Made by a program: the position numbers and the translations under genes
Notes under the pieces: model-generated
Seen by the model: only the letters and a program-made list of their open reading frames with translations
Databases searched by the model: none
What the model was told of the DNA's origin: nothing
Shown here: one piece after another, positions 3,169-64,000 of the stretch
Layout: each line of letters begins with the position of its first letter
How positions within the stretch are numbered: the first letter of the stretch is position 1
Source of the DNA: an uncultured virus (IMG/VR IMGVR_UViG_3300028194_000749)
Lineage: Duplodnaviria > Heunggongvirae > Uroviricota > Caudoviricetes
Reading direction: 5' to 3' (one strand)
IMG/VR virus record: IMGVR_UViG_3300028194_000749
Length of the DNA: 64,000 nucleotides

Positions 3169-3203
3169 TAGTCTTTAAGTATCAAGGAAAATAACCTCTA
3201 TGT

Positions 3204-13044: not shown

Positions 13045-13260
13045 ATGAAAAAAACCAAACCCACAAATTATGAAGCCGCCAAGAGAACAGTTATTGTTGG
13101 TGAAAAAGTTACTGCCGAAAACATGGTGACACGACTTATCGAAAATCGTCGTCGTGAAATCCCGACTAAACGAAGTCTGTCTGCCAAGATGAAAAAAGAC
13201 CCAGATTTTATCGTGATTTCTAATCAGCGTGGACCCACTATTTTTCAGCGTATCGCATAA
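13045..13260 (+). CDS. Small basic, probably DNA-binding protein
   Basis: K/R rich, helix-turn-helix-like. Confidence 0.5.
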   Translation: MKKTKPTNYEAAKRTVIVGEKVTAENMVTRLIENRRREIPTKRSLSAKMKKDPDFIVISNQRGPTIFQRIA

Positions 13261-16647: not shown

Positions 16648-16959
16648 ATGGACAAAGACTTACAAAAGTTTCAAGAAGAGTTAATGTTACTCATTGATGC
16701 TTTTATTACAGATACTTCGGAAGTCAAAGAAGTTATGGGTCGTGTTTCATCACAATTAGAAGATTTAGAAGAAGATATGGCTTATATCAACAAAGTTGTT
16801 CGTGATGGTAACGGTCGTCCTCCAGTTATGACTCGTATTGAAGTCATCGAAGAAAAACTTTCAACTTTGAAAGCAGTTCAAGATAAGTGGTGGCAAGTTT
16901 GGATGGCCGCAGTTCCGGGCTTAATAGCCTTGATAACCACTGGTGCAGTAGTAATGTAG
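16648..16959 (+). CDS. Coiled-coil protein with C-terminal TM
   Basis: Promoter at 16618; heptads, GNGRPP, C-term hydrophobic helix. Confidence 0.6.
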   Translation: MDKDLQKFQEELMLLIDAFITDTSEVKEVMGRVSSQLEDLEEDMAYINKVVRDGNGRPPVMTRIEVIEEKLSTLKAVQDKWWQVWMAAVPGLIALITTGAVVM

Positions 16960-19786: not shown

Positions 19787-21475
19787 ATGGAGAAAAATAA
19801 TAGATTTACAAAAACAATGCTTACGATTTTGACCGCAATTATGCTTGCTATGAGTGCAGGTATAGTTACCGCAGATGGTTCTGACCCTCTGGACCCTTCC
19901 GATGGTGGGGCAGATTGGGACGGTGATGGTTTAACCAACGCTGAAGAGAACGATGCAGGAACGAACATGAACAATGCCGATTCAGATGGTGATGGATTAC
20001 CTGATGGATGGGAGGTCAATCACGGACTTAACCCAACTAACGGTGGAGATGCAAATGCTGACCCCGATGGTGATGGTTTAACCAATGCACAAGAATATGC
20101 TAAGGGAACTAACCCAAACAACGCTGACACCGATGGTGACGGCAAACCAGATAATACAGATGCTTTCCCAAACGACCCTAATGACGGAGAATACTCCGAT
20201 TCAGACGGAGATGGAATACCAGATGCTTACGACCCAGATTACCAAGAATCCCAACCGGGTTCTGGTGATGGAGGAACAGAAGGCGGCGGCGAATCCGAAG
20301 ACCAAGGCCAAGGCCAAGGCGAAGGCCAAGGTCAGGGACAAGGGCAAGGGCAAGGACAAGGACAAGGACAGGGACAAGGCCAAGGCCAAGGTCAGGGTCA
20401 AGGTCAGGGTCAGGGTCAAGGACAGGGCCAAGGTCAAGGACAAGGACAGGGGCAAGGCCAAGGTCAAGGGCAAGGTCAAGGTCAAGGACAAGGACAGGGA
20501 CAAGGACAGGGGCAAGGCCAAGGACAACAGCAAGGCCAAGGTCAAGGACAACAAGGCCAACAATCAGGACAGCAAGGCCAGCAAGGACAGGCTGGGCAAC
20601 AAGGCCAGCAATCTGGACAACAAGGAAATCAAGGTCAGCAAGGTCAGCAAGGACAACAAGGCCAGCAACAAGATAACGGTCAAGGTCAGCAACAGCAAGG
20701 AGGCCAACAAGGAGGCCAACAATCCGAGCAACAAGCCGAAGAACAGAACGGACAAAACCAAAACGGCCAATCCCAACAACAACAGGGACAAACTCAAAAC
20801 GGGCAACAAGGCCAACAAGGGCAACAGTCTGATACACAACAAGGCCAACAGTTAGACAATCAAGAACAGAATGGTGAAAACGATAATGACGGTGACAGCA
20901 TTCCTGATGACCTCGATAACGATGATGATAACGATGGAATCCCCGATTCTATGGATGATTCACCATTAGACCACGACAACGATGGTATCAATGATGCCGA
21001 AGATGACGATGATGACGGTGATGGAATCAATGATGCTGAAGAAGTTAATGATGGCAACGATAACACCAACATTTACGACCACGACAACGATGGTATCTCC
21101 GACCGATTCGATTTAGATATTGATAATGACGGTATCGACAATTACAAAGACTTTTACACTAATGGCAGTGATGCCAGCCGAGACCACGACAACGATGGTT
21201 TGAATGATAGTGTAGACTCAGACGACGATAACGACGATATTCTGGATGTTGATGAAATTGGTGGTGCATGGTCTTCCTATCGCTACGACCACGACAACGA
21301 CAACATTTGGGATGCTTCCGATTTGGATGACGATAACGATGGTTTGAGTGATTGGTTCGAGTCTAACGATGGTAACGATAATACCGGTCAGTTCGACCAT
21401 GATAACGATGGTCTGGACGACCACCTCGATGATGACGATGATGACGATGGTATCCTCGACATCTTAGAATCCTAA
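19787..21475 (+). CDS. Secreted Ca-binding (DxDxDG / thrombospondin type 3-like repeat) protein with central (GQ)n and Q-rich spacer
   Basis: Signal peptide; DWDGDG, DSDGDGLPDGWE, many DHDNDG/DDDNDG repeats. Confidence 0.8.
   Translation: MEKNNRFTKTMLTILTAIMLAMSAGIVTADGSDPLDPSDGGADWDGDGLTNAEENDAGTNMNNADSDGDGLPDGWEVNHGLNPTNGGDANADPDGDGLTNAQEYAKGTNPNNADTDGDGKPDNTDAFPNDPNDGEYSDSDGDGIPDAYDPDYQESQPGSGDGGTEGGGESEDQGQGQGEGQGQGQGQGQGQGQGQGQGQGQGQGQGQGQGQGQGQGQGQGQGQGQGQGQGQGQGQGQGQGQGQGQGQQQGQGQGQQGQQSGQQGQQGQAGQQGQQSGQQGNQGQQGQQGQQGQQQDNGQGQQQQGGQQGGQQSEQQAEEQNGQNQNGQSQQQQGQTQNGQQGQQGQQSDTQQGQQLDNQEQNGENDNDGDSIPDDLDNDDDNDGIPDSMDDSPLDHDNDGINDAEDDDDDGDGINDAEEVNDGNDNTNIYDHDNDGISDRFDLDIDNDGIDNYKDFYTNGSDASRDHDNDGLNDSVDSDDDNDDILDVDEIGGAWSSYRYDHDNDNIWDASDLDDDNDGLSDWFESNDGNDNTGQFDHDNDGLDDHLDDDDDDDGILDILES
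20303..20527 (+). repeat. ~37 x Gly-Gln dipeptide coding repeat, followed by Q-rich tract to ~20850
   Basis: GGN-CAR hexamers with mixed synonymous codons. Confidence 0.95.
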
Positions 21476-22401: not shown

Positions 22402-23343
22402 ATGGACGCAAAGACAATCGCAGGTGCAGGACTAATTATTGGTGGTGGCCTTATGGGTTACAAATCAATGAAAGATTTGGCAGGGCTTGGATGTTATGGA
22501 CCAGCAGCATATTTGACTCTTGGACTCACAGCAATTGGCGGTGGACTATTCCTCTTTGGAAAACTACGCCGTGAAGAAGTTTCAGCCAAGAATGAACAAG
22601 TTAAAGAAGAAATCTCAGCAGTTTTGAGTTCTGAATACTTCCCACAACTTCCAGATGGTATGGATGCTGGTGCAGTTGTTGTTCCAGATTCCTACGGTGG
22701 CACATCTTCTTTGATGTCAGGCCGTGGTGTCCCACAATGGTATGGAAGCGCAGAAGGTCGTAAATACGGCAAGCGTGACCGCTACACCGACCGATGGGGT
22801 AATGCTCGTTACATGACCCGTCGTAAGGATGGTTCTATCGTTACTTCAGTCAATATCGCAGGTAAGAAGGGTGCAGTTGCTAACGACCGCCGTTCCAACG
22901 CTGTGAACTACGCTAAGTCTGGCTACCGTCAGATGGGTGATGCCAAGCCAGTTGGCCGTGTCGAGCGTGCTATGAAGAATATGTTCGGTGCTGATGGAGA
23001 ATACACAGTCCAAGAACAAGGACTTCCAGTTATCCCAGATTCCTACGGCACAAACTCAGCATTGAGTTCAGGCCAAGGTGTCCCACAATGGTATGGTTCC
23101 GCAGAAGGCAAGAAAGGCCGATACGGAAAGCGACAACGCTTCACTACTTCTAAGGGCAACAGCCGCTATGTCGCTCGCAACACCAAGGGAGAGTTCATCT
23201 CCAATGTAGCCGTCGCTGGTAAGCGTGGTTCAATCGCTCAAGACCTTCGTAAGACCGCTAAGTCATACAAGCCTGTTGGTTACCGCCAAATGGGTGATGG
23301 AAAGCGTGTTTCCCAGAAGGCTCGTCGCAGCAAGAACGAGTGA
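22402..23343 (+). CDS. Membrane-anchored protein with two tandem [PDSYG..VPQWYGSAE + basic domain] units
   Basis: Two N-term TMs; internal duplication of ~120 aa. Confidence 0.75.
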   Translation: MDAKTIAGAGLIIGGGLMGYKSMKDLAGLGCYGPAAYLTLGLTAIGGGLFLFGKLRREEVSAKNEQVKEEISAVLSSEYFPQLPDGMDAGAVVVPDSYGGTSSLMSGRGVPQWYGSAEGRKYGKRDRYTDRWGNARYMTRRKDGSIVTSVNIAGKKGAVANDRRSNAVNYAKSGYRQMGDAKPVGRVERAMKNMFGADGEYTVQEQGLPVIPDSYGTNSALSSGQGVPQWYGSAEGKKGRYGKRQRFTTSKGNSRYVARNTKGEFISNVAVAGKRGSIAQDLRKTAKSYKPVGYRQMGDGKRVSQKARRSKNE

Positions 23344-27194: not shown

Positions 27195-27614
27195 ATGAGC
27201 GAAGATTCCTTCGTAGGTGTCATGGATATTCCTGTTAATCCTGAAATCATGTCTTTGGCTACGATTTCAATACCCAGTGATATTTGTTTGGAAAGTATTT
27301 CTATACCGACTAATGCTATTTCATATATTACTGAAGTTGAGTTCACTTTCTTGTTAGATGGGGATGAAGTTTGGAGTGGCACAGGATTACCACATGGAGT
27401 TGAGTTCGGCATTCCAAATAATTTAGCATTTTCAGACCAACCACGAACCTTGTTAGTTTTGGCGCAACCCAGTGCTTTATTGGGTATGCCTTTAGGATTA
27501 CATACCTCGGAACTACCTATTGCACTCAAAGGTCGTCGAGGCTCTTGTGCTTACACCATAGATACCGAAGAAGATTACGAGTTTCCTTCATTTTTCATAG
27601 ATGCTTGGGTGTGA
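27195..27614 (+). CDS. Hypothetical protein
   Basis: Promoter at 27165. Confidence 0.55.
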   Translation: MSEDSFVGVMDIPVNPEIMSLATISIPSDICLESISIPTNAISYITEVEFTFLLDGDEVWSGTGLPHGVEFGIPNNLAFSDQPRTLLVLAQPSALLGMPLGLHTSELPIALKGRRGSCAYTIDTEEDYEFPSFFIDAWV

Positions 27615-27648
27615 AGTATTAAGTAGGAGAGACATCATATCTTTCCTT

Positions 27649-28815
27649 ATGGCTTACTTGCTTTTATTTACTGGAAAAGGTGGAGTCGGTAAATCAACGA
27701 TTTCCGCAGCCACCGCTTTGCACCATGCTCAACAAGGACTACGCACCCTATTGGTATCCTCTGACCCAGCACACAGCACCGATGATACTTTGGGCATCAA
27801 AGTAGGATTCCAACCCACACAAGTCGCTGAAGATTTACCATTGTGGGCGAAGAATCTGAATGCCGAGGAAATGGCCGGCGATTTCTTCGGGAAGATGGAA
27901 AGTTTGATGGAAAAGTCTTTTGGTTCATTACCCGGTTTTGATTCATCTATGCTTTCAGACTTGAGTAATTTTCCCGGTATGGATGAAGCCTTTGCTATGG
28001 AAGAAATTGAAAGATTGTGTGCTTCCGCAGATTACGATGTTATCGTTTTTGATACTGCACCCACAGGCCACACACTCAAAGCCTTGTCTGCACCAGATTA
28101 TCTTAATACCTTCTTGTTAAAAGTTTTGCGTATGAAAGCCAAAATTGAAAATCTTAAAGGATTTTTTATCAAGAAAGGAGATACTTCTAAACTTGTAGAC
28201 TTACTCGAAGATTTCATCAAGAGGATAGAAAGACTAAAAGTTTTGCTTCGTAATCCTGAATATGTTAGCATTAACTTGGTTTCCATCCCTACTGAAGCAG
28301 GTTTCGCCGAGTGTCTTAGAACCGTTAGATTTTTGGACAACATGAAGATTCCTGTGCAACATATAGTAGTTAATCAAATTATTCCCTCATTTACCCCTGA
28401 TGTGTGGGAGATTGCACCAAGTAACCCTGCGGTAGCACTCCTCAAAACGGAATATGATATTCAACAGCCCTATTTGGGTCGATTTAAGGAACTAACCTCC
28501 TCCCACCCTATTCGGTTGGTTGGAATGACAAGATTACCATTTGAACCCCGTTCCGCCCGCCTCGTAGATGTTGCACATACACTCTGGGGAGAGCGTGGTT
28601 TGAACTTCCCAATCACACCTTCTTTGGAAGTTCAAGAGGATTCATTAACACTCCATATTCCTTACATCAAGAATGCTAAATGGACTAAAGATAATTGGAC
28701 TTATCGTTTTGGAGATTCACTCCATCATATTCCATTGGAAAAACCTGATACTAAGATTACTCGTAAGACCGACAAGAAAACCAATTGTGTTATTTTAAGT
28801 TGGGCGAATGATTAA
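27649..28815 (+). CDS. Get3/ArsA-family (SIMIBI) ATPase, single domain with putative C-terminal alpha-crystallin-like domain
   Basis: GKGGVGKS, SDPAH, PGMDE, DTAPTGHT, VVNQI; start 31 nt after promoter at 27618. Confidence 0.9.
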   Translation: MAYLLLFTGKGGVGKSTISAATALHHAQQGLRTLLVSSDPAHSTDDTLGIKVGFQPTQVAEDLPLWAKNLNAEEMAGDFFGKMESLMEKSFGSLPGFDSSMLSDLSNFPGMDEAFAMEEIERLCASADYDVIVFDTAPTGHTLKALSAPDYLNTFLLKVLRMKAKIENLKGFFIKKGDTSKLVDLLEDFIKRIERLKVLLRNPEYVSINLVSIPTEAGFAECLRTVRFLDNMKIPVQHIVVNQIIPSFTPDVWEIAPSNPAVALLKTEYDIQQPYLGRFKELTSSHPIRLVGMTRLPFEPRSARLVDVAHTLWGERGLNFPITPSLEVQEDSLTLHIPYIKNAKWTKDNWTYRFGDSLHHIPLEKPDTKITRKTDKKTNCVILSWAND

Positions 28816-47443: not shown

Positions 47444-48646
47444 ATGTCAGATTTTATGGCGACTCAACCCAAAGAGGCATTTCCCACTCCGAGTGAGGTA
47501 TGTTTGGGTCAAAAACTTAGGTTTCCTGCCTATGGAGAAGATAGTTTAATTTCTAATGTGCTGTTTATTACTGGTAAGCGAGGTTCAGGAAAGTCTTGGA
47601 CCGCAGGTGTAATGATGGAAGAGTTTCATAGACTTGGATTACAATTTGTTTGTTTCGATGCTTTGAATGCTCATGGTGGCATAGATACATTATCCAGAGT
47701 AGAGTCACTCAAACCCGATGTGGGTCAATCCATTGATATGAAATCATTAGTAGACCGTTTGAAAACCACAGACAAAAGTTTAGTCATCAGTCTGGGTGGA
47801 TTACCTTTACTAAAACAACAAGAACTTATTGGAGATTATTGTGAAGCCTTGATTGAAGCCCGACTGGGCAAAGGTATTCACACTATTATTGAAGAATGTC
47901 AAGATTTCGTGCCACAAATGGGCCGACCTATTTCTTATGACCCTATCGTGCGACTCTGCAAACTTGGTCGTGCATTAGGATACGGTGCGTCTTTGGTTTC
48001 CCAACGACCCGCAGGTGTGAACAAAGAAGCACTTTCGCAAGCATCAGTTTATCTGGTTCACAATGTCATTAACAACCGAGACTTGAAAACTTTGGACGAA
48101 CAATTAAGTTTTGGAACAGACAAGCGATTGATTAAGAAAATCTTGAATGGTATTGCTTCGGCTCGCAAAGGAGAATGTGTCGCCTATGCCCCAGAGTTTT
48201 TCCGAGACCGAGGCTACCTTGTTATTGACAAAGTGCGTAGTGACCGACAAGCCAAGCACACTGGAAACAACATAGATGTTCAGAGTTCCATGATTTCTCA
48301 ATCCGAGTCCAGCGATTCTGTGGATGAACCCTTTGAAGCAGTTAGTTCTGCTTCCGAACTTTCACATTTTGCCCGCCAATCCTCACCAACGATGCCTTCA
48401 GCATCCCCGGCTTTTTCCACGCATCCCACAGGTTATTTATCTCAAGGTGGATTCCAAGATATGGCTATGACTGAAGACCATTGGGAGGCTTCAGAATTAG
48501 AACCCTCTTTAGAATATGATTCCGAAATGGAATTAGAAATAATTCCTGAAAATAAGAATACTATTTGGGTTCCTGTGGCTGCCGTAGGTGGTGTAGGATT
48601 AACTGCTGCTTTAATGATGGTAGTTATGAAAGGCTTTACTCGTTAA
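47444..48646 (+). CDS. HerA/FtsK-superfamily (DUF87-like) ATPase with C-terminal tail anchor
   Basis: GKRGSGKS, IIEECQ, GRALG, SQRP; C-term IWVPVAAVGGVGLTAALMMVVMK. Confidence 0.85.
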   Translation: MSDFMATQPKEAFPTPSEVCLGQKLRFPAYGEDSLISNVLFITGKRGSGKSWTAGVMMEEFHRLGLQFVCFDALNAHGGIDTLSRVESLKPDVGQSIDMKSLVDRLKTTDKSLVISLGGLPLLKQQELIGDYCEALIEARLGKGIHTIIEECQDFVPQMGRPISYDPIVRLCKLGRALGYGASLVSQRPAGVNKEALSQASVYLVHNVINNRDLKTLDEQLSFGTDKRLIKKILNGIASARKGECVAYAPEFFRDRGYLVIDKVRSDRQAKHTGNNIDVQSSMISQSESSDSVDEPFEAVSSASELSHFARQSSPTMPSASPAFSTHPTGYLSQGGFQDMAMTEDHWEASELEPSLEYDSEMELEIIPENKNTIWVPVAAVGGVGLTAALMMVVMKGFTR

Positions 48647-49581: not shown

Positions 49582-49995
49582 ATGAATGACGACACAGGAT
49601 TCTCCCAACCAATTATTGAAGACCCAAACAGCACTGTGGGTTCCTACCCATGGGATGGCGACCACGGAGCCACTCGTGCTTTTGATGTTAGTTCAATGTC
49701 TGTTATGTCAAATCCAATGCCTTCTATGGTTCAACCAGCCAAAGATGCAGTTTCAGAAGAGTTTCAAGGATTGAAAGACGAAGTTACCGAGTCTACTTCA
49801 CCAGAAGGTGCAGACATGGGACAAACTGGCGACGCTGGCGGAGATGCTGACGGACAAAACTTTGGACAAGACCAAGGTTCCCAAGACACAATGGAGGCCG
49901 AATCAATCAGTTTGCCTATCATTGGAACAGTTTCATTCCTAACAATTGGTGTTGTTGGAGTCCTCGGTTACTTCTTTTTGAAGCGAGGCGAATAA
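49582..49995 (+). CDS. Acidic tail-anchored protein
   Basis: MEAE directly before C-term TM LPIIGTVSFLTIGVVGVLGYFFLKR. Confidence 0.7.
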   Translation: MNDDTGFSQPIIEDPNSTVGSYPWDGDHGATRAFDVSSMSVMSNPMPSMVQPAKDAVSEEFQGLKDEVTESTSPEGADMGQTGDAGGDADGQNFGQDQGSQDTMEAESISLPIIGTVSFLTIGVVGVLGYFFLKRGE

Positions 49996-50032: not shown

Positions 50033-50890
50033 ATGGCAAGAGTAATCGGAAATGCAGTTCTACCAGATTTGCCCTATTCACCAAATCTGCGCCCACTACC
50101 ACAAGTAAATATCACTCGTGATACTTTAGCAGGATATAATGCTCGTGCTATGATTGGCCAAGGTCTTTCATCGGCTGCACCTCGTCCCTCACCAACTATC
50201 ACCAAGATGCCTTCAATTTCAGTTCCAGAAAGCAAACCTATGTCTATGGAAGCACAGGCTATGGGTGCAGGATATGGACAAGGTATCGTTCCTATGACTC
50301 CTCGCCCAGCACCTATGCAAATGAATATCCCTCGTCTTGATATTCCTATTGGCAGCATGGCACAAGACTTTGCTTTGCAGAACTACGATTTGATGGGACA
50401 AGGTATTACACCTGAAGCCCAATACCTACGACCTACTCACACTATGGAAGTTTATGCACCTGCCGCAGCACCAAATGTTGCTGGACTTGAGCGTATGAAG
50501 CCAGAGATGATGATGGGAAGTATTAACGCCCACCAACCTACAATGAACTTTGGTGGCGACCCTCGTATGGAAGCAGAGTTCGCATCCATTCGACCAACTA
50601 ATCCACGACAAATGACTCGTGCACCTACTGTTAATATCTCAGCAAGCGCACGCCGAATACCAATTCGTGAGTTGCCTCTAATCCCTGCCAGCACACAACC
50701 TCGTGTGCCAAATGTTTCTGCTTTGATTGGCCCAGTTAAGTCAATCAAGATGGAAGCCCAATATGTCGCACCACCTGTGCGTAACTCTGACCTTGGAGGA
50801 ATGCTCAACAGCACCAGCCGAGTCGGAGGATTTGGAAACAGCAGTGGAAGAACCTTTGGTGCAGAAGCACCACTTACAGTAAGACTGTAA
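50033..50890 (+). CDS. Pro/Met-rich low-complexity modular protein
   Basis: MEAQ, PEAQ, MEAE, MEAQ, FGAE junctions; repeated GQG motifs. Confidence 0.65.
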   Translation: MARVIGNAVLPDLPYSPNLRPLPQVNITRDTLAGYNARAMIGQGLSSAAPRPSPTITKMPSISVPESKPMSMEAQAMGAGYGQGIVPMTPRPAPMQMNIPRLDIPIGSMAQDFALQNYDLMGQGITPEAQYLRPTHTMEVYAPAAAPNVAGLERMKPEMMMGSINAHQPTMNFGGDPRMEAEFASIRPTNPRQMTRAPTVNISASARRIPIRELPLIPASTQPRVPNVSALIGPVKSIKMEAQYVAPPVRNSDLGGMLNSTSRVGGFGNSSGRTFGAEAPLTVRL

Positions 50891-53220: not shown

Positions 53221-53679
53221 ATGGCTTTGATGACTAACTCCTATGTTCGCCGAGATGCGAATACAGAAATAGGTTTTTTACCACCGACTTCTTCTGAATC
53301 TATGATGATGAATGATGGCACTACTATGCCTGCTACTGCTTTCCGAGAAGATTCTCCAGTTATGAAATACACACCCGAAGAACTTGGCATGAATCCTCGT
53401 GCTTCACCATTTTATGACCCAGACACTAATTCCGCAGCCATGGCCAGACCAGCCCAACCAAGTGGTAGTCAGACCACTGCCGTTGATTCTAACTCGGCTG
53501 CCTCGACAGTTTTAGGTGCAGAGTATAATGTAGAGGCTATGGATGCTGTCGGAACTGGTGCTGTTATGGCAGCCTCCAATTTTAACACTTGGTTTTCATC
53601 CAACATCGGATTTATTGCATTGGCCTGTGTCGGCGTTTATGCTGTCTACCGATTTGGAGTGAACTCTAATGCTGCGTGA
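53221..53679 (+). CDS. Tail-anchored protein
   Basis: LGAE; C-term IGFIALACVGVYAVYRF. Confidence 0.65.
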   Translation: MALMTNSYVRRDANTEIGFLPPTSSESMMMNDGTTMPATAFREDSPVMKYTPEELGMNPRASPFYDPDTNSAAMARPAQPSGSQTTAVDSNSAASTVLGAEYNVEAMDAVGTGAVMAASNFNTWFSSNIGFIALACVGVYAVYRFGVNSNAA

Positions 53680-56308: not shown

Positions 56309-57976
56309 ATGACTGGAGAAAAAATGCTATATGTTAAATCAAATGACTTTTGGGGATATGATGCGAGCGATTTTGATTCGTCTCTAAACTTTTACACCTA
56401 CACATGGACAGTTCCAGCAGCCATGTATGATGGTATGGATGATAGCGACCAAGGACGACTCTTCCCTTGTGCACTATTTTATGTCCAAGGAGTTACTGAT
56501 AATCACAATTTCCTAACACTTTCTATTGATGTTACGGGTGCCGATGCTAAAGTTCGTGGTATGCAAGGAGCCAAGCGTCGCACACTCAAGTTTGAAAAAG
56601 GTGTGCCTTATGCTTATTCCGTTGGTAGTTTGTCTATGAAGGAAGCACCTGCTGGTTCTTCTAACATCAGTGAGATTGAAACTGCGGTTAAAGATGGTTC
56701 GGCTACTATGACTGGAGTATTCAATGTTGATTCTTTCCTAACTGATGCAGGTGAAATCGCAACAGCAGTTGGTTTGTCTACTGCCTCATCAGCAGAAAGT
56801 TATGAAGCAGAAGTTTCGGATTTCTATCCACAATCCTCTGCTGAAATTGGTAACGAACAATCTGGCCGTGGAGTTCCAGTGGCTTATGGCTCTGGCTCAT
56901 CTCAATATGTTGAACCACCAGTGGTTGAACTTGAAGCAGAAGTTTCAGATTTCTACCCTCAATCATCTGCCGAAATCGGTGATGAACAATCAGGGCGTGG
57001 AGTTCCTGTGTCTTACGGCTCAGGGTCCTCACAATATGTTGAGCCTCCTGTTGTGGAACTCGCAGCAGAAGTTTCTGACTTCTACCCACAATCTTCAGCC
57101 GAAATCGGTGATGAACAATCTGGACGAGGAGTTCCTGTGTCTTATGGCTCTGGTTCTTCTCAATATGTTGAACCACCAGTTGTAGAACTCGGTGCTGAAG
57201 TTATTGATGATGATTACATGGATGCTTATTCGGCTATGGGAGAACCAGATGCAGAATACGACCAAGGCTACAACGACCAACTCGACGAATCCCTCGGAAT
57301 GAGAGATGGAGCAGAAGGAAACTTCCGCCAATCTATGAAATCCCGAAGAGATGAGTCAAAAGGGACTGAAAAATATGATAAGTCTCGCCCCTACTCTGGA
57401 GTAGATACTATGGATGCACAAGGATACAACGACAAAATGGATGAATCATTGGGTATGCGACATCGTGGTCGTCATTCTCAATCAATGAAAGACCGCCGAG
57501 ATGAAGCGGCTGCTATGGACCGAAAATACGGAATGAAGCGTAAGTATGATGATGTTATGACAATGGATGCTGATGGTATGATTACCGAAGGCTTGCCAGT
57601 TATTCCAGATTCCTACGGCACTAATTCTGCACTAAGTTCTGGACAAGGTGTGCCAGTTTGGTATGGTAGTGCAGATGGTATGGAAGATTACAACTACCAA
57701 AGCAACGAGGGTTCATTGGATAGCGCAGGCTTCACAGAAGGCACTGTTAATCCTATGGAGTTCACTCGTCTTGGTGCTTATGATGTTCCAGTTATTTCTA
57801 ACAGTTTAGGAGAAGATTCTTCTGAGATGGGATATGGAGTTCCACAATGGTATGGAGCCGACACTATGGCAGACAACTTCGAGGAATCTGCACCACCTAT
57901 GAATATGGGTAAGAAAACAGTTGGTCTAATGGCTATCATTGGATTGCTTGCTGGAGCATACATGGCTCGTAAGTGA
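56309..57976 (+). CDS. Repeat-containing modular tail-anchored protein
   Basis: 3x43-aa repeat, 2x QGYND..DESLGMR, 2x VPxWYG modules, C-term TVGLMAIIGLLAGAYMARK. Confidence 0.75.
   Translation: MTGEKMLYVKSNDFWGYDASDFDSSLNFYTYTWTVPAAMYDGMDDSDQGRLFPCALFYVQGVTDNHNFLTLSIDVTGADAKVRGMQGAKRRTLKFEKGVPYAYSVGSLSMKEAPAGSSNISEIETAVKDGSATMTGVFNVDSFLTDAGEIATAVGLSTASSAESYEAEVSDFYPQSSAEIGNEQSGRGVPVAYGSGSSQYVEPPVVELEAEVSDFYPQSSAEIGDEQSGRGVPVSYGSGSSQYVEPPVVELAAEVSDFYPQSSAEIGDEQSGRGVPVSYGSGSSQYVEPPVVELGAEVIDDDYMDAYSAMGEPDAEYDQGYNDQLDESLGMRDGAEGNFRQSMKSRRDESKGTEKYDKSRPYSGVDTMDAQGYNDKMDESLGMRHRGRHSQSMKDRRDEAAAMDRKYGMKRKYDDVMTMDADGMITEGLPVIPDSYGTNSALSSGQGVPVWYGSADGMEDYNYQSNEGSLDSAGFTEGTVNPMEFTRLGAYDVPVISNSLGEDSSEMGYGVPQWYGADTMADNFEESAPPMNMGKKTVGLMAIIGLLAGAYMARK
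56807..57193 (+). repeat. 3 x 129-nt in-frame tandem repeat (AEVSDFYPQSSAEIGxEQSGRGVPVxYGSGSSQYVEPPVVELx)
   Basis: Units begin at 56807, 56936, 57065; synonymous divergence. Confidence 0.95.
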
Positions 57977-59143: not shown

Positions 59144-60052
59144 ATGTCTGACGACGGTATTTCACCTTTCTTAGCCGAGATTGAAAGTGAAGTCACAGTA
59201 GAAGCCGCAGGTAATCCTAACAACGCTGTGGCTTTTGATATGGAATCTGGTAAAAACTCTGTGGTAGATACCATGGAAGTTACTAAAGAAGATTTGAATA
59301 CTTATCTTAGTGCTTCACAAAGAAGTTCACTTCCTAAGCACCTTCAAGAAGGTATTGTTCGTAAGAAGAAAACCTCGGCTGCCGAAGAAGAGGCTATGCC
59401 AAGTTTTGAAGAGATGCGTGATGAAACTGCACCTCAAGACCCAGCCGAACCAGAACCAGATATTAGTCAAATGGGAGAAACCCCTGAACCCGGTTTTGCC
59501 GACCCAGATATGGGTCCTACTGAAATGGGAGGTCCTGATGATATGACAGGTGGCGAAATACTGGATAGTCCTTTGCCAGTGGAACTTCTATCTGAGCGAC
59601 TTCAGAATCAAGAACAAGAAATGGTGGTGGCCAGCATGACACAAAAACAATTTGAAGATTGGTTGTTTCCAGCCGCAGAAGAATCTGATTGGGCATCGGG
59701 TCAAATTGCTTTAGCCCGTATTATGGCAAATCTTAAAGCCGCAGGTTATGATTCTAAATCTTTGTCATTAAATGATGAACTCTACCCTGCTTATGTGCAA
59801 ATTGCTTCTTCACTTTGGAGTCGTCAAAATCTGGTAACTCCAGTTCGTGATGATGTTTTATCCAGAGTCGAAAATGCTCCGGCTGCACAATTAGTGGCGA
59901 CTTTGGAAGCCACCGCTTCCGCAGTTCCTACTGAACTCGCTGCTGAATTGTTTCGAGTCCCCATTGAAGAAACCACTAATTACACTCCATATTTAATTGT
60001 AGGATTGGCTACAATCGCCGCTACGACCATTCCATTCTTTTGGAAGCGATAG
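59144..60052 (+). CDS. Acidic tail-anchored protein
   Basis: FLAE; C-term YLIVGLATIAATTIPFFWKR. Confidence 0.7.
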   Translation: MSDDGISPFLAEIESEVTVEAAGNPNNAVAFDMESGKNSVVDTMEVTKEDLNTYLSASQRSSLPKHLQEGIVRKKKTSAAEEEAMPSFEEMRDETAPQDPAEPEPDISQMGETPEPGFADPDMGPTEMGGPDDMTGGEILDSPLPVELLSERLQNQEQEMVVASMTQKQFEDWLFPAAEESDWASGQIALARIMANLKAAGYDSKSLSLNDELYPAYVQIASSLWSRQNLVTPVRDDVLSRVENAPAAQLVATLEATASAVPTELAAELFRVPIEETTNYTPYLIVGLATIAATTIPFFWKR

Positions 60053-60090: not shown

Positions 60091-60891
60091 ATGAATCTGG
60101 ACCTCGCTATTCAAAATGTTATGAAGCGCAGTGAAATGGAAGGTGCTATGCACGGAGTTATGTCTAACTTCGGAGCCAGTTACGAGTTGATGGCTTACAC
60201 TGATTCTGCTAAGTCTGCGGAAAACATTCTTGGAGTTACTGTGGCACACATGGCTCCTAATGCTTTGAGTCGTCCAGTTATGGAAACTAAGCGTGCCGAA
60301 GTTTATACTGCTACGCCACCTACTCAAGATGTTTCAACTACAATTGGACCTATGGAACTTTCTTACACAGCCAGTTCTCGTAACTGGACTCTAAGTTCTA
60401 TGGGACAACCAACATTTTGGAATAAACTTTTCGGAACTGCACCATCGTCAAAGATTCTTATTACTAAGTATGGCACTAATGCTTCCCATCGTTTCTTGAG
60501 TGCTGTTGAGAACTCTGGTATGTCAGCATCTTCTAAGAATCAAATTGCTTCTTTTGTTATGACTCATATGCAATCCACCTCTGTTCGTGCTTACCAACAA
60601 GGGCTTACGGTTGATACAACAACATTAGATGATGCTATTACTTCTTCCACCAGTCGCAAAGTTCTCGAAGCCAACTATACTAATGGTTCTCAAGAAATGA
60701 GTTTGGCAGAAACCTATTCAGGGGTTGCTAAACTTAGTAATAACACCTTTATGGGTGATACAGTTATTCCACAACCGCTTAGTGCGGCACAAGTAGGCAC
60801 GGTTCGCACTGCACTCGGCGACCCCGTAGGTGTTCATATTTCACCACCAACCCGACATATGGGTGCAATCAAGACTAACCGAAGTCTTTAA
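60091..60891 (+). CDS. S/T-rich hypothetical protein
   Basis: Promoter 60061; KSAE, KRAE, SLAE. Confidence 0.6.
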   Translation: MNLDLAIQNVMKRSEMEGAMHGVMSNFGASYELMAYTDSAKSAENILGVTVAHMAPNALSRPVMETKRAEVYTATPPTQDVSTTIGPMELSYTASSRNWTLSSMGQPTFWNKLFGTAPSSKILITKYGTNASHRFLSAVENSGMSASSKNQIASFVMTHMQSTSVRAYQQGLTVDTTTLDDAITSSTSRKVLEANYTNGSQEMSLAETYSGVAKLSNNTFMGDTVIPQPLSAAQVGTVRTALGDPVGVHISPPTRHMGAIKTNRSL

Positions 60892-60916
60892 GTAGTTGAA
60901 CAGGAGAGTTAAAAAC

Positions 60917-61936
60917 ATGAATGCAGTAACAGATGTAGTCGAAGATTCCTACGAAGGACTCATGGATGCAAAGTTTTATTCTGGCGTTGCTGGTATTGCC
61001 ATTGGTGGAGTTCTCGGCAGCGTCGTGACTCTACTACCATTCTACAAACTTGGAACTTTTGGAAATATCGCTCGCACAGTAGTTACCGCAGGCTCAGGTG
61101 CTTACCTTGTTCAAATGTCTCGTAAAGTTTCTGGAGATATGTCTTCCTTGTATCTTGGTGCAGGAACCATCCTCGGATTCATTGGTGTTACACAAGCCGT
61201 GGGATACCTCACTGCATTCACAGGACTTTCTATCCCGGGATTCAATGGACTTGGTAGTGTTTTAATCGGTGAAGCAGAATCTTCAATTCTACCTCAGCGT
61301 GGCTCTGGCCGTGTTCTCGGTCAAGAAACAGCAACCCAAGATTTTTCTGACATCTACAATTCCGAAGATATTTTTGAGGAAGGCACACAACAAATGATTA
61401 ACCGTGTTCCTGCTGACAACCCAGTTGATTCAGTCGTCGAACAAGCACCACTTGGCCATGGAGTTACTCAATGGTTTGGTGCAGACGGAATCTCTGCTAC
61501 TGGTGGAGTTGCCCAAAGTTTTGGTGGAGTTGCTGAATCATCTTCCGTCAATCACAACCCACAGACTAATGTTAGTCAATATGTTTCCTCAGTTGATACT
61601 ATGGGAACTCGTGCTATGAATGTGAACAAGGGTTCACCACTTACACAATCTGCCTATGGTAAGAACTATTCACCTCCAGTTTCATTCCAATCTGAAGAAC
61701 CTACTATGAAGATGGGACAAAGTGACGCACCAACTCCAAGTATGGGACAACTACCAGACATCTGGAGTTCTTACATCAAACCTTCCACCACTGCCGAAGA
61801 AATGGTAATGGACACCGTTAGAATGATTAACCCGGGACAACCTATCCAATGGTATGGTTCCGAAGAAAGTTCTACTGGAGTTCTATCACACCATATGTCT
61901 CACGCAGAAGGATTTGGAAGTGTCATAGGACAATAA
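60917..61936 (+). CDS. Multi-TM N-terminus plus modular disordered C-terminus
   Basis: GEAE, HGVTQWFGAD, GQPIQWYGSE, SHAE; start 30 nt after promoter 60887. Confidence 0.7.
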   Translation: MNAVTDVVEDSYEGLMDAKFYSGVAGIAIGGVLGSVVTLLPFYKLGTFGNIARTVVTAGSGAYLVQMSRKVSGDMSSLYLGAGTILGFIGVTQAVGYLTAFTGLSIPGFNGLGSVLIGEAESSILPQRGSGRVLGQETATQDFSDIYNSEDIFEEGTQQMINRVPADNPVDSVVEQAPLGHGVTQWFGADGISATGGVAQSFGGVAESSSVNHNPQTNVSQYVSSVDTMGTRAMNVNKGSPLTQSAYGKNYSPPVSFQSEEPTMKMGQSDAPTPSMGQLPDIWSSYIKPSTTAEEMVMDTVRMINPGQPIQWYGSEESSTGVLSHHMSHAEGFGSVIGQ

Positions 61937-61964: not shown

Positions 61965-62216
61965 ATGCTACAAAGAATGTGTGATTGGACAAACTCTCGA
62001 AATGGACAAATTGTAATGGGTGTTGCTACTTTAGTCGGTGGCCTACATCTATTCTTCAGCGAATCTCAACCAGTATTGGGTATGCTCGATATTGGCGGTA
62101 TTACTCTAATGGGTAAGGAAATCGGAGTCCAGCAAGTTCTGGGTGTCGTTCTTTCCATTGGTGGTGCTTGCTATGTTTGGGATTATTGCTGTGCTGATAC
62201 CGGCATGGGTATGTAA
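61965..62216 (+). CDS. Small two-TM membrane protein
   Basis: AGGTGA SD; two hydrophobic helices. Confidence 0.6.
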   Translation: MLQRMCDWTNSRNGQIVMGVATLVGGLHLFFSESQPVLGMLDIGGITLMGKEIGVQQVLGVVLSIGGACYVWDYCCADTGMGM

Positions 62217-62223
62217 ATAGGAG

Positions 62224-62820
62224 ATGAATAATATGAATATAAAAAGAATACTTGTGAATGAATATACTGTTGGCGGAAGCCTATTGCTGGTTGGTGCTGG
62301 ATTCTTCAGCACTCGATTTACTGATGCTCTCTCTTATGAGTTGTTCACTCTACCCTCGGCTATCCCTATGATTGGCGGTGCATCTGTCACTGTTGGTCGT
62401 GTGGCTGGTTTAGTCCCACTAAGTTTGGGTATTGCATTCTTGCTCGGTAAGGTTCGCCCAGTTACTTCCAAAGTTCCAGTCGTTGATAAGGTCGTAGACC
62501 TTGCTGACCGAATCGTGAACGAAGTTTCAATGCCGGTTTCTGAAGAAACATCCACAATGGGTGCAGAGTTCTGTGCAGAACACAACGCTGAGTTCTCTGC
62601 TTGCGGTTGTGGCACTAAAGCGGCTGAAACCGTAGACCATCTTAATCCAACTGAAGTTGATTCCCCAGAAGTTTCTCTGGAAGCAGAATCAGGCTCCAAA
62701 AAAAAACTAAAATGGACTGACGCTGTGAAAGCGGCTCGCAAAGAGTTAGGCATCACTGGATTTAGCGCAGTTAAGAAGGAAACTCCCCTTTACAAGCGTG
62801 CTAAAGCACTAATGGCGTGA
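62224..62820 (+). CDS. Two-TM protein with C-terminal DVNP-like basic module
   Basis: MGAE FCAE HNAE KAAE LEAE; C-term KWTDAVKAARKELGITGFSAVKKETPLYKRAKAL. Confidence 0.7.
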   Translation: MNNMNIKRILVNEYTVGGSLLLVGAGFFSTRFTDALSYELFTLPSAIPMIGGASVTVGRVAGLVPLSLGIAFLLGKVRPVTSKVPVVDKVVDLADRIVNEVSMPVSEETSTMGAEFCAEHNAEFSACGCGTKAAETVDHLNPTEVDSPEVSLEAESGSKKKLKWTDAVKAARKELGITGFSAVKKETPLYKRAKALMA

Positions 62821-62825
62821 TACTT

Positions 62826-62927
62826 GTGTCTTACGCAAGTCGATTCCGTGGACTTCCAATGGTAGTTCAATTAGGAATTGCTTTGGGTGTCACTGTGGTT
62901 GTCGTCAAAGTCTGGGAAAAAGTCTAA
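62826..62927 (+). CDS. 33-aa single-TM microprotein (not in ORF track)
   Basis: GTG start; MSYASRFRGLPMVVQLGIALGVTVVVVKVWEKV. Confidence 0.45.
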   Translation: MSYASRFRGLPMVVQLGIALGVTVVVVKVWEKV

Positions 62928-62961: not shown

Positions 62962-63846
62962 ATGACAACTGTTAGTTTAACTTACTATCACGATAGTAAG
63001 AACTATGGTAACTTTGGTGATGAGTTATCACCATTTATTATTCAAAAACTACTAAGTTCCGAGTATAAACTCCTACTTAATGCCCCAGAATCCGACCATT
63101 CTTTGCTTGGAATAGGTTCTATTATACATCTTGCTAAAGAAAATGATTATGTTTTTGGTAGTGGTTTGGGAGTTTTAGAACCAGAATCATTACCACATTT
63201 GAACATTTGTGCCGTCCGAGGACCCTTAACTCGTGAAACTTTAGCCCATTATGATATAGATTGCCCAGAAGTTTATGGTGATGCGGCTTTGTTACTACCT
63301 AAGTTTTATACACCTACTTATTGTGAAGGACTTTCTACTAAGATTGGTTTTGTTCCACATTTTAATCATTACGATAATTATGCATCCCTCGAACTTCCTG
63401 AAAACTTTCACTTGATTGACCCAACTATGGAGTGGAGACAAGTTATTGATGAGATTACCTCTTGCCATGCAATTGTTTCACAAAGTCTACATGGTTTAAT
63501 TTGTGCTGATGCTTACCAAATCCCCAACATTAGATTTGCAGAAAACTTTTGGTTCTGCAATATGTGTCACAGCCTGAGCACGCAGAGTGCACTCAACTTA
63601 GATGAAACTTTTAACTTATCTACTTCTGGGGATGACCGTCCAGCCTGTAATTGCGGTTGGAAATACAATTGTTGGGGCAATAATTTACTACATCATAATG
63701 GAGATTTTAAGTTTCAAGATTATTTTATGAGTCAAGGTCGAAAGAGTATTTTCTTAACTACATTAGAATCTTATAATGAAACTTTACTCTATACCGACGG
63801 CAATCAGATAGATTTAGATTTACTTATCTCGGTATTTCCCTTCTGA
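62962..63846 (+). CDS. Polysaccharide pyruvyl transferase-family (ExoV-like) protein
   Basis: NFGDELSP, GIGSII, AVRGPLT, GDAALLLP, VPH, SLHGLICADAY, FKFQDY. Confidence 0.85.
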   Translation: MTTVSLTYYHDSKNYGNFGDELSPFIIQKLLSSEYKLLLNAPESDHSLLGIGSIIHLAKENDYVFGSGLGVLEPESLPHLNICAVRGPLTRETLAHYDIDCPEVYGDAALLLPKFYTPTYCEGLSTKIGFVPHFNHYDNYASLELPENFHLIDPTMEWRQVIDEITSCHAIVSQSLHGLICADAYQIPNIRFAENFWFCNMCHSLSTQSALNLDETFNLSTSGDDRPACNCGWKYNCWGNNLLHHNGDFKFQDYFMSQGRKSIFLTTLESYNETLLYTDGNQIDLDLLISVFPF

Positions 63847-64000
63847 TTTCAGGCACATTCGGATAAAAAACCCAAACCTTTAAGTAGTCAAAAAGACCAA
63901 TATAGAGTATGAGCAACCAAGTGTTGTTCTAAACCTAAAATGGAGATGAAAAAATATGAGTATGAGAAGCCAAGTATATGAATGGGCCAACCTCGCACCT

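What the first reader, a model, noticed from the sequence alone, without database searches (positions are those of the whole stretch)
62698..62820. DVNP-like (dinoflagellate/viral nucleoprotein) basic module in an archaeal element, fused behind a membrane anchor
Seen: KKKLKWTDAVKAARKELGITGFSAVKKETPLYKRAKALMA follows LEAESGS. From memory it resembles the C-terminal half of DVNPs (W..AV.KARK.LG..GF.A.KK...LY..AK), the chromatin proteins of dinoflagellates and some algal giant viruses. Inference: a eukaryote/NCLDV-derived DNA-condensing peptide made as a membrane-tethered precursor.
Basis: partly seen in the sequence, partly recalled or inferred. Interest (0 to 1): 0.8.

Follow-up and report, generated by a model that had tools for sequence, protein, structure and literature searches.

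The report
DVNP core on archaeal-virus membrane protein
A small membrane protein of a large marine virus of archaea ends in a true copy of the conserved tail of DVNP, the DNA-packing protein so far reported only from dinoflagellates and giant algal viruses, so the known range of that module is wider than thought.

Summary
The ORF 62224/62233-62820 (+) ends in the quoted 40 residues.

The DVNP resemblance is real homology, not chance:
- Pfam's only hit is DVNP (PF19060), below its cut-off and covering only profile positions 47-77 of 77.
- phmmer against 1.8 billion proteins links the tail to about 50 short basic proteins. 23 of the 46 I scanned pass Pfam's DVNP cut-off.
- A profile-profile comparison gives 99.4% probability, E 4e-21.

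The protein is not a whole DVNP. The N-terminal half of the DVNP core is missing. The tail (net +9) sits behind a nearly invariant hydrophobic hairpin and an acidic linker (net -12).

The element is a virus of archaea:
- It is collinear with about 160-kb linear IMG/VR genomes that encode PolD and TBP.
- TTTAAGTA boxes lie exactly 30 nt before many start codons.
- Internal genes have Shine-Dalgarno sites.

Best reading: a membrane-anchored DNA tether. DNA binding is inferred, not shown. Nothing supports cleavage of a precursor, and the direction of transfer is unresolved. About half of the family carries a different short tail. An A9 tract lies at the linker-module junction.

The scan found the same thing earlier on other DNA (e1-5652782). 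My literature searches found no report.

The parts
60887..60894 (+). TTTAAGTA box, putative archaeal TATA-like promoter of the operon that holds the target
   Evidence: The box occurs 32 times in the window (31 on +) against 3.2 expected. This copy lies 30 nt before the ATG at 60917. The next copy downstream is at 63879.
60917..61936 (+). First gene of the operon, a 339-aa protein with one strong N-terminal hydrophobic segment and no family match
   Evidence: 72% identical to its G001 orthologue. A 348-aa homologue occupies the same position in L011.
61965..62216 (+). 83-aa hydrophobic protein, preceded by AAGGTGA (Shine-Dalgarno)
62219..62223 (+). AGGAG, Shine-Dalgarno site 9 nt before the ATG at 62233
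   Evidence: Homologues start at MNIK.
62233..62820 (+). The target gene (195 aa; 198 aa if read from 62224)
62263..62448 (+). Nearly invariant hydrophobic hairpin (residues 14-75 in 198-aa numbering): two Gly-rich hydrophobic segments with a conserved loop
   Evidence: 31 invariant columns in 31 sequences, nearly all in this part. Hydropathy. AF2 helices 4-29 and 57-81, at low confidence.
62449..62697 (+). Variable acidic linker (net charge -12), predicted disordered
   Evidence: pLDDT 35-49.
62569..62613 (+). FCAEHNAEFSACGCG, a C-x2-H-x6-C-x-C motif in the linker, kept in some clades and absent from others
   Evidence: A metal-binding role is my guess.
62698..62706 (+). A9 homopolymer (codons KKK) exactly at the linker-module junction
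   Evidence: One of only two runs of 9 in the 64 kb, and the only one inside an ORF. Three related protein clusters end at this tract. RNA-library contigs of two studies carry one extra A here.
62713..62817 (+). DVNP C-terminal module: helix W164-L175, loop GITGFSAVKKET, helix P188-A198. The basic run KKKLK lies just before it; the 40 residues from K159 have net charge +9.
   Evidence: Pfam PF19060 positions 47-77 of 77. Alignment A2. hhalign. AF2 pLDDT 82-85 in the whole protein and 80.6 for the module alone.
62817..62927 (+). 36-aa hydrophobic ORF with a GTG start that overlaps the target's stop codon
   Evidence: A 94-aa hydrophobic ORF follows the orthologue in L011.
62962..63846 (+). Polysaccharide pyruvyl transferase-like gene, the downstream neighbour, syntenic in G001
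   Evidence: PF04230, 47.1 bits. G001 orthologue 49.5 bits.

Best explanation
The gene encodes a small integral membrane protein of a large (about 160 kb, linear) marine virus of archaea. A nearly invariant N-terminal hydrophobic hairpin holds it in a membrane. An acidic, disordered linker of about 80 residues acts as a spacer. The last 35-40 residues form a basic helix-loop-helix module that is a true homologue of the conserved C-terminal half of DVNP.

I propose that this tail binds double-stranded DNA without sequence preference, as DVNPs do, and so ties DNA, most likely the viral genome, to the cytoplasmic face of a membrane. That membrane could be a replication or assembly site on the host membrane, and could carry through into a virion membrane.

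Shown: the homology, the hydrophobic anchor, the charge layout, the operon of membrane proteins, the conservation and the archaeal setting. Inferred: DNA binding, the N-in/C-in topology (positive-inside rule only), and which DNA and which membrane. My odds: module homology on a membrane protein of an archaeal virus, above 0.9; DNA-to-membrane tether, about 0.5-0.6.
For: Homology:
- PF19060 is the only Pfam hit.
- 13 of 31 family members hit PF19060 on their own at E <= 0.05.
- It is the only PF19060 match in each of two related whole viral records, and it lies in the orthologue's tail.
- Of the 46 C-terminus-only phmmer hits I scanned (46 of 50 such hits among 71 in all), 41 have PF19060 at E <= 0.01 and 23 reach the 25-bit cut-off.
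- The gap-free alignment keeps W, A, G and K invariant and R, K, L, F, K, G, T, P, L, Y, A nearly so.
- hhalign gives 99.4%, E 3.9e-21.

Fold: only the tail is confidently predicted, as helix-loop-helix, pLDDT 82-85 and 80.6.

Anchor and layout:
- Hydrophobic segments and charges of +2, -12 and +9 for residues 11-75 (the hydrophobic part), the linker and the tail.
- K/R flank the N-terminus and the end of the second hydrophobic segment.

Context:
- The operon runs from the TTTAAGTA box at 60887 and includes other small hydrophobic proteins. The order is kept in G001 and L011.
- 25 of 71 window ORFs have a hydrophobic segment and 8 look tail-anchored, among them the HerA/FtsK-like ATPase. The virus encodes an ArsA/Get3 homologue at 199.7 bits.

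Archaeal host:
- PolD DP2 (350, 290 and 278 bits), TBP and an Hjc-like nuclease in collinear G001.
- 18 of the 30 TTTAAGTA boxes that have a listed ORF downstream (32 in the window) lie exactly 30 nt before an ORF's ATG.
- 24 of 65 ORFs have a TATA-like box at -36..-24 (background 1.1%). 25 of 65 have a Shine-Dalgarno tetramer at -17..-4 (background 13.5%).

Literature: DVNP binds DNA (passages of PMC5906630 and of bioRxiv 10.1101/2024.02.09.579734). [quoted passage not shown]
Against: - No experiment shows that the C-terminal half of DVNP binds DNA on its own.
- The N-terminal half of the DVNP core is absent here.
- About half of the family (63 of 134 proteins P0001-P0134 after hand correction, against 55 with the DVNP-like tail) carries a different short tail, PKQQAWRSCV..AKGDM..AK.LY. 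That tail is not detectably related to DVNP: hhalign 1.8%, E 0.027. The tail's job may therefore be more generic than DVNP-type DNA packing.
- No capsid, portal or tail protein was recognised in the window or in G001. The virion type is unknown, and so is whether a virion membrane exists.
- If the membrane were an internal vesicle pinched off inward, a cytoplasm-facing tail would face the capsid and not the DNA.
- The topology rests on few charges.
- The hydrophobic hairpin has low AF2 confidence.
Confidence: 0.6

Rival explanations
1. Precursor model: the membrane protein is cleaved just before the module, at or near LEAES/GS. This releases a free basic peptide of about 40 residues that condenses the viral genome like a protamine or DVNP.
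For: An acidic linker next to a basic tail recalls pro-peptides. An AE[SG] motif lies just before the module in several clades (EAESGS, EAEGG, RAES). Stand-alone module-only basic proteins exist in giant-virus contigs.
Against: No protease was recognised in the window or in G001. The junction sequence is not conserved across the family. The alternative short tail follows KTTGSPKQQ, with no such motif. Cleavage cannot be seen from sequence.
Confidence: 0.08
2. The tail is not a DNA binder here. It is a basic helical hairpin that docks on acidic partners: lipid head groups, the protein's own acidic linker, or an acidic virion or host protein. It would serve assembly of a membrane protein complex.
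For: In about half of the family the tail is replaced by an unrelated short W-containing basic tail, which suggests a generic role. Most neighbouring proteins are strongly acidic. The membrane hairpin, not the tail, is the most conserved part.
Against: Every characterised relative of the module is a DNA-associated nucleoprotein (papers cited above). The module is kept at 42-62% identity to DVNPs, and nearly all of their conserved positions are retained.
Confidence: 0.17
3. Host-directed weapon: the tail binds the host chromosome and pins or compacts it at the membrane to shut down host functions. This would parallel the toxicity of DVNP expressed in yeast.
For: DVNP expression impairs transcription and growth in yeast (passages of PMC5906630). 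With an N-in/C-in topology the tail would face the host cytoplasm.
Against: The gene lies deep in a long block of unknown, membrane-rich, probably late or structural genes, next to a HerA/FtsK-like ATPase, and not among obvious early genes. Nothing tells host DNA from viral DNA for a non-specific binder.
Confidence: 0.1
4. The resemblance is a chance or compositional match of a lysine- and alanine-rich tail, or the element is really a eukaryotic giant virus, so nothing is unusual.
For: The Pfam score is below the gathering cut-off (16.3 against 25 bits). The module is short.
Against: The matched positions include W, G-x-x-G-F, KKGT-x-LY and AK, which are not low-complexity sequence. E-values reach about 5e-15 in a library of 1.8 billion proteins, and hhalign gives E 3.9e-21. 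A eukaryotic host is contradicted by PolD, rigidly spaced TATA-like boxes, Shine-Dalgarno sites and overlapping genes. No NCLDV capsid and no PolB were found in G001 or G002.
Confidence: 0.02

Closest known systems
DVNP family (Pfam PF19060): dinoflagellate/viral nucleoproteins of dinoflagellates and of giant viruses (Imitervirales, Algavirales)
   Same: The last 35-38 residues align without gaps to the C-terminal half of the DVNP core (profile positions 47-77): W..AV..ARK.LGI.GF..(I/V)KKGT.LY..AK. Identity to the proteins in alignment A2 is 42-62%. The module is strongly basic.
   Different: The N-terminal half of the core (the GGL.K.DL..NK.GKIVSKK region seen in full DVNPs) is absent. The whole protein is not basic (net about 0). 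It is membrane-anchored, with an acidic linker. It is encoded by a virus of archaea, whereas the papers I read report DVNPs only from dinoflagellates and giant viruses (PMC11953307 section 11; passages of bioRxiv 10.1101/2024.02.09.579734).
Module-only basic proteins of giant-virus contigs (for example in IMG/VR records named GVMAG; L016-L025)
   Same: They carry the same C-terminal module alone, without the N-terminal half of DVNP, at 62-72% identity to the target's module over 29-39 residues. Several proteins carry two or three tandem modules (P0138, P0139, P0140, P0144), so the module behaves as an independent unit.
   Different: They are small, soluble and very basic (S/K/R-rich N-termini), have no hydrophobic anchor, and lie in low-GC or prasinovirus-like contigs. 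The target's module is fused to a membrane protein.
Phage phi29 p16.7 (recalled, not looked up here): a membrane-anchored DNA-binding protein that organises phage DNA replication at the membrane
   Same: The proposed way of working: an N-terminal membrane anchor, a spacer and a C-terminal non-specific DNA-binding domain, in a virus with a linear genome.
   Different: No sequence relation was tested or expected. The DNA-binding fold differs, and so do the host domain and the genome size.
LEM/HeH inner-nuclear-membrane proteins (recalled): membrane proteins that tether chromatin through a small helix-extension-helix domain
   Same: A membrane anchor plus a roughly 40-residue two-helix module, proposed to hold DNA at a membrane.
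   Different: Fold searches with the module model gave no match to such domains (best VIA Z 3.0; Foldseek E > 4). Pfam reported no SAP, HeH or LEM hit. This is an analogy only.

Membership tests
DVNP (Pfam PF19060) | Score at or above Pfam's gathering cut-off (25 bits) for the whole protein | tested here: not met
   16.3 bits for the whole protein, 20.0 bits for the last 50 aa, 18.8 bits for the last 40 aa. Orthologues score 19.3 and 17.4 bits.
DVNP (Pfam PF19060) | Conserved C-terminal core motif W..AV..ARK.LGI.GF..IKKGT.LY..AK (profile positions about 47-77) | tested here: met
   Gap-free alignment with proteins that pass the cut-off. hhalign 99.4%, E 3.9e-21, 38 columns. phmmer E down to about 5e-15.
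DVNP (Pfam PF19060) | N-terminal half of the core (profile positions 1-46; the region GGL.K.DL..NK.GKIVSKK.S..GKK seen in full members) | tested here: not met
   Pfam and hhalign alignments cover only the C-terminal half. The residues before the module are an acidic linker.
DVNP (Pfam PF19060) | Small, highly basic soluble protein | tested here: not met
   195-198 aa with a hydrophobic hairpin. Net charge is about 0 overall, -12 for the linker and +9 for the tail only.
DVNP (Pfam PF19060) | Binds and packs DNA (nucleus of dinoflagellates, virions of giant viruses) | not testable with these tools
   Inferred from homology only. Needs peptide-DNA binding assays.
DVNP (Pfam PF19060) | Occurs in dinoflagellates or Nucleocytoviricota | tested here: not met
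   The setting is a virus of archaea: PolD, TBP, TATA-like boxes 30 nt before start codons, Shine-Dalgarno sites.
Unnamed family of marine archaeal-virus membrane proteins (this ORF's own family) | Nearly invariant N-terminal hairpin NEYTVGGSLLL.G.GFFSTRF...P..P..GG..TVGR...VP..LG | tested here: met
   173 relatives at E <= 0.01. 31 invariant columns in 31 aligned sequences. Same operon position in G001 and L011.
SAP / HeH / LEM-type two-helix DNA-binding folds | Structural match of the module model to a solved member | tested here: inconclusive
   No listed match: Foldseek against PDB best E 4.6; VIA-align wide best Z 3.0. A 35-residue module is at the limit of these methods.

The most novel reading that the evidence does not exclude
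The C-terminal half of DVNP is an old, self-standing DNA-binding mini-domain that moves between viruses of archaea and giant viruses of eukaryotes. DVNP itself (N-half plus this module) would then be a later assembly, and its ultimate source could be archaeal viruses rather than giant viruses. In this lineage the module is a swappable, and perhaps switchable, tail. It alternates with an unrelated short tail across the family. In the window's subclade it lies directly behind an A9 tract, where a one-base slip removes it. For one-base-shorter variants, the sequence implied by the SKKN endings would be A_AAA_AAC followed by TAA, a classical -1 frameshift arrangement (the heptamer rule is recalled). 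That could yield both a tail-less and a tailed isoform.
Probability: 0.2. Interest if true: 0.85.

Novelty: new variant of a known kind. Interest (0 to 1): 0.62.

Why it matters
DVNPs are the proteins that replaced histones in dinoflagellates. Their origin is currently traced to giant viruses of eukaryotes (PMC11953307). A true copy of the DVNP core on a conserved membrane protein of an abundant marine archaeal virus lineage has three consequences:
- It extends the module beyond eukaryotes and their viruses.
- It shows that the C-terminal half is an independent evolutionary unit.
- It points to gene flow between archaeal and eukaryotic viruses in the plankton.

It also gives a short, testable peptide for asking which part of DVNP binds DNA. 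Finally, it suggests a way in which a poorly understood, membrane-rich, PolD-encoding virus lineage links its genome to a membrane.

Tried and rejected
- Whole genome of the window: none is held.
I could not name the organisms behind P0135-P0189.
- Word-based homologue search with the tail alone among shorter proteins: no candidates.
- ESM Atlas with the tail: no usable hit and no model.
- tblastn of the whole protein against 50,697 GenBank phage records at E <= 1: no match.
- PDB sequence search with the module profile: only a chance adenylate-kinase match, E 0.15.
- Fold searches: the whole model gave only generic helical hairpins, Z <= 6.2. The module alone gave Foldseek E > 4 and VIA Z <= 3.0. 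My idea that the module is SAP/HeH/Rho_N-like has no support.
- Module tree (107 instances, 36 columns): unresolved, 63 of 104 inner branches open, no direction of transfer readable.
- Short alternative tail against DVNP or against the family's long tail: not significant, 1.8% and 0.7%.
- Capsid hunt: no NCLDV capsid and no PolB in G001 or G002. PHROGs and Pfam found no capsid, portal or tail protein. My candidate 50033-50890 turned out to be a Pro/Gly-rich protein with PRPAP repeats, and I did not fold it.
- Pattern scans for A-tract variants: one JGI contig (L035, tract as in the window) and no IMG/VR contig, so I have no DNA-level tract-length distribution.
- Genome-contig scan: one hit, a 136-kb contig of a MAG labelled Rickettsiales. 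It carries the short-tail form and is probably a mis-binned viral contig. It gives no host clue.
- Metatranscriptome contigs: several parts of the operon have no cover in each run. This says nothing either way.
- Complex prediction was not used: I make no protein-protein binding claim.
- Literature searches for PolD-encoding marine viruses found no description of this lineage (passages of PMC7544198).

Full report
**The observation.** The + strand ORF 62224-62820 ends in ...SLEAESGS followed by KKKLKWTDAVKAARKELGITGFSAVKKETPLYKRAKALMA. The 40 residues are encoded at 62698-62817 and are followed by the stop codon. Homologues begin at MNIK, and AGGAG at 62219-62223 lies 9 nt before the ATG at 62233. 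The real start is therefore probably 62233 (195 aa).

**Is the DVNP resemblance real?** Yes, on five lines of evidence.
- Against Pfam at E <= 10, the only family reported is DVNP (PF19060). It scores 16.3 bits for the whole protein, 20.0 bits (E 9e-4) for the last 50 residues and 18.8 bits for the last 40. The match always covers profile positions 47-77 (49-77 for the last 40 residues) of 77 and is always below the 25-bit cut-off.
- phmmer of the whole protein against 1.84 billion representative proteins gave 71 hits at E <= 1e-3. Fifty of them match only residues about 133-197, with E from 1e-3 down to about 5e-15.
- I scanned 46 of those 50 against Pfam, leaving out P0156, P0171, P0181 and P0184. 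41 have PF19060 at E <= 0.01 and 23 reach the cut-off, for example 77.9, 75.8, 73.2 and 65.3 bits.
- In alignment A2 the target's tail aligns without gaps to these proteins at 42-62% identity. W, A, G and K are invariant, and R, K, L, F, K, G, T, P, L, Y, A are nearly so.
- A profile of the 20 family tails against a profile of 18 proteins that pass the DVNP cut-off gives 99.4% probability, E 3.9e-21, over 38 columns. Those 18 were found through the query, so this test is not fully independent. The Pfam model is independent.

At family level, 13 of 31 members hit PF19060 on their own at E <= 0.05. In two related complete-looking viral records, the only PF19060 match lies in the orthologue's tail.

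**What it is not.** The N-terminal half of the DVNP core, visible in the full DVNPs of A2, is missing. All alignments stop at the tryptophan region. The protein as a whole is not basic. So it carries the DVNP C-terminal module but is not a DVNP.

Many hits likewise have the module alone behind S/K/R-rich sequence, sometimes in two or three tandem copies. The module therefore behaves as an independent unit.

**Anatomy.** Alignment A1 (31 sequences) has 31 invariant columns, nearly all of them in the N-terminal 75 residues.
- That part holds two Gly-rich hydrophobic segments. AF2 draws them as helices 4-29 and 57-81, at low confidence.
- K/R residues flank the N-terminus and the end of the second segment. 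This weakly favours both ends facing the cytoplasm (inference, positive-inside rule).
- The linker varies in length and sequence, has net charge -12 and is predicted disordered. In some clades it holds a C-x2-H-x6-C-x-C motif.
- The tail has net charge +9. It is the only confidently folded part: helix 164-175, a 12-residue loop, helix 188-197, with pLDDT 82-85. Folded alone it gives pLDDT 80.6.
- No solved structure resembles it by sequence or by fold.

**The family has two tails.** I sorted P0001-P0134 with a regular expression and corrected five rows by eye.
- 55 carry the DVNP-like tail.
- 63 carry a short tail, G(S/T)PKQQAWRSCV..AKGDM..AK.LY..MGY.
- 16 are truncated or otherwise different.

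The short tail is not detectably related to DVNP (1.8%, E 0.027). Both tails occur on otherwise similar backbones, for example P0122 against P0131. The C-terminus is therefore a swappable cassette. This weakens any claim that DVNP-type chemistry is essential to the protein.

**The element.** All 65 ORFs of at least 80 aa that I kept lie on the + strand.
- The window encodes PCNA, an ERCC4 nuclease, a 5'-3' exonuclease, a class II ribonucleotide reductase, an ArsA/Get3 ATPase, a C5 methyltransferase and a HerA/FtsK-like ATPase.
- It is collinear by tblastx with positions about 22-81 kb of an IMG/VR record of 160,342 bp. IMG/VR classes that record as having inverted terminal repeats. A second record of 166,176 bp is alike.
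- The first record, G001, encodes the PolD large subunit DP2 (350, 290 and 278 bits for its three domains), TBP (155 bits), PolX, an ATP-dependent ligase, an XPD-like helicase, an Hjc-like nuclease, a PriS-like primase and three more C5 methyltransferases.
- It shows no PolB and no NCLDV capsid, and no recognisable capsid, portal or tail protein.

**Expression signals are archaeal.**
- TTTAAGTA occurs 32 times (31 on +) against 3.2 expected.
- 18 of the 30 boxes that have a listed ORF downstream lie exactly 30 nt before an ORF's ATG. This fits a TATA box driving leaderless mRNAs.
- 24 of 65 ORFs have such a box at -36..-24, against a background of 1.1%.
- 25 of 65 have a Shine-Dalgarno tetramer at -17..-4, against a background of 13.5%. 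Genes often overlap by 1-14 nt.

These signals, together with PolD, make a eukaryotic host very unlikely. The host lineage is not identified. The only hit in species genomes is a contig in a MAG labelled Rickettsiales, which is probably mis-binned.

**Context of the gene.** The target lies in a transcription unit that starts at the box at 60887. It follows a 339-aa and an 83-aa hydrophobic protein, and a 36-aa hydrophobic ORF follows it. The order is kept in G001 and L011.

The virus is rich in membrane proteins. 25 of 71 window ORFs have a hydrophobic segment, and 8 look tail-anchored, including the HerA/FtsK-like ATPase. This fits the virus-encoded Get3/ArsA homologue.

**Distribution.** The stretch is held almost whole by 14 DNA runs of marine, seawater and brine metagenomes. 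All 20 holding rows, DNA and RNA together, come from 15 studies; some of the DNA runs may be the window's own source. Short contigs from four metatranscriptome libraries of four studies cover parts of the operon, including 62420-62779. This is compatible with transcription, but DNA carry-over is not excluded.

**Who else has the module.** An IMG/VR scan with A2 returned 21 loci.
- Two are the archaeal-virus records.
- Nineteen encode small stand-alone basic proteins.
- Four of those records are named as giant-virus MAGs, and two more encode the same protein as one of them.

The papers I read report DVNPs only from dinoflagellates and giant viruses, with homologues in 528 of 1817 marine giant-virus genomes and one in the PkV RF02 virion proteome (PMC11953307, sections 9, 11 and 18; passages of bioRxiv 10.1101/2024.02.09.579734). 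A full-text search for DVNP together with 'archaeal virus' found one unrelated paper. A module tree is unresolved, so the direction of transfer is open.

**How it most likely works.** The protein is a membrane-anchored DNA tether. The hairpin sits in the membrane, the acidic linker spaces the tail and perhaps masks it, and the basic two-helix tail binds DNA at the cytoplasmic face. I cannot say whether this serves replication or assembly at the host membrane, genome attachment in a membrane-bearing virion, or both. The virion type is unknown.

Rivals are a cleaved precursor (no support), a protein- or lipid-docking tail, and a host-nucleoid weapon.

**A side observation.** The KKK before the module is an A9 run, the only one inside an ORF in the window.
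- Three distinct related protein clusters end exactly there. P0005 and P0010 end in SKKN, as expected if the tract were one base shorter. P0011 ends in SSKKK. The other five clusters of this subclade read through.
- RNA-library contigs of two studies carry one extra A at the tract.
- This may be homopolymer error, real on/off variation, or slippage. I could not fetch the DNA behind the truncated forms.

The scan had already flagged the same architecture on another genome (e1-5652782). My tests agree with it.

Noticed in passing
window 62698-62706: An A9 tract lies exactly at the linker-module junction and is the only homopolymer of 9 inside an ORF in the window. Three related protein clusters (P0005, P0010, P0011) stop at it. 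Two metatranscriptome contigs from different studies have one extra A there. A one-base-shorter tract would, by inference from the SKKN endings, read A_AAA_AAC followed by TAA, which looks like a -1 frameshift site (the heptamer rule is recalled).
   Followed up: partly
window, e.g. 45-52, 3174-3181, 60887-60894 (32 sites): The TTTAAGTA box occurs 32 times against 3.2 expected, and 18 copies lie exactly 30 nt before a start codon. This is a very regular promoter for leaderless mRNAs. Genes inside operons use GGAGG/GAGGTGA sites instead.
   Followed up: yes
window 27601-28815 and tail-anchored ORFs (75-1838, 16648-16959, 47444-48646, 49582-49995, 53221-53679, 56309-57976, 59144-60052): The virus encodes an ArsA/Get3-type ATPase (199.7 bits). 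At least 8 window proteins have a single hydrophobic segment at the very C-terminus, among them the HerA/FtsK-like ATPase. The virus may bring its own insertion factor for tail-anchored membrane proteins.
   Followed up: partly
L008:6627-10190 (-) and L003:15740-16378 (+) in the related record G001: A roughly 160-kb linear viral genome with inverted terminal repeats encodes a full-length PolD large subunit (DP2) and a TBP, but no recognisable PolB, DP1, capsid, portal or terminase. My literature searches found no description of such a lineage.
   Followed up: partly
family-wide (P0059-P0134, L011:3371-3925): About half of the family carries an alternative short C-terminal tail, G(S/T)PKQQAWRSCV..AKGDM..AK.LY..MGY, in place of the DVNP-like module. 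It is not detectably related to DVNP.
   Followed up: yes
window 62569-62613: The linker holds FC.EH......ACGCG (C-x2-H-x6-C-x-C). The motif is conserved between distant clades, missing in others, and replaced by CxxC...CxxC in P0052. It may be a small metal-binding knuckle.
   Followed up: no
window 50033-50890: A highly conserved (83% to G001) 285-aa Pro/Gly-rich protein with repeated PRPAP-like motifs, a strong promoter and a Shine-Dalgarno site. It has 91 marine relatives and no family.
   Followed up: partly
window 22402-23343 and 13045-13260: Two conserved, strongly basic proteins without any family: 313 aa with net +25, and 71 aa with net +10 right after the PCNA gene. They are candidates for the virus's own DNA-packing proteins.
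   Followed up: no
window 75-1838 and 19787-21475: Proteins with a thrombospondin-type (TSP1 spondin-like, below cut-off) domain and with bacterial TSP3 repeats. The second protein has net charge -121.
   Followed up: no
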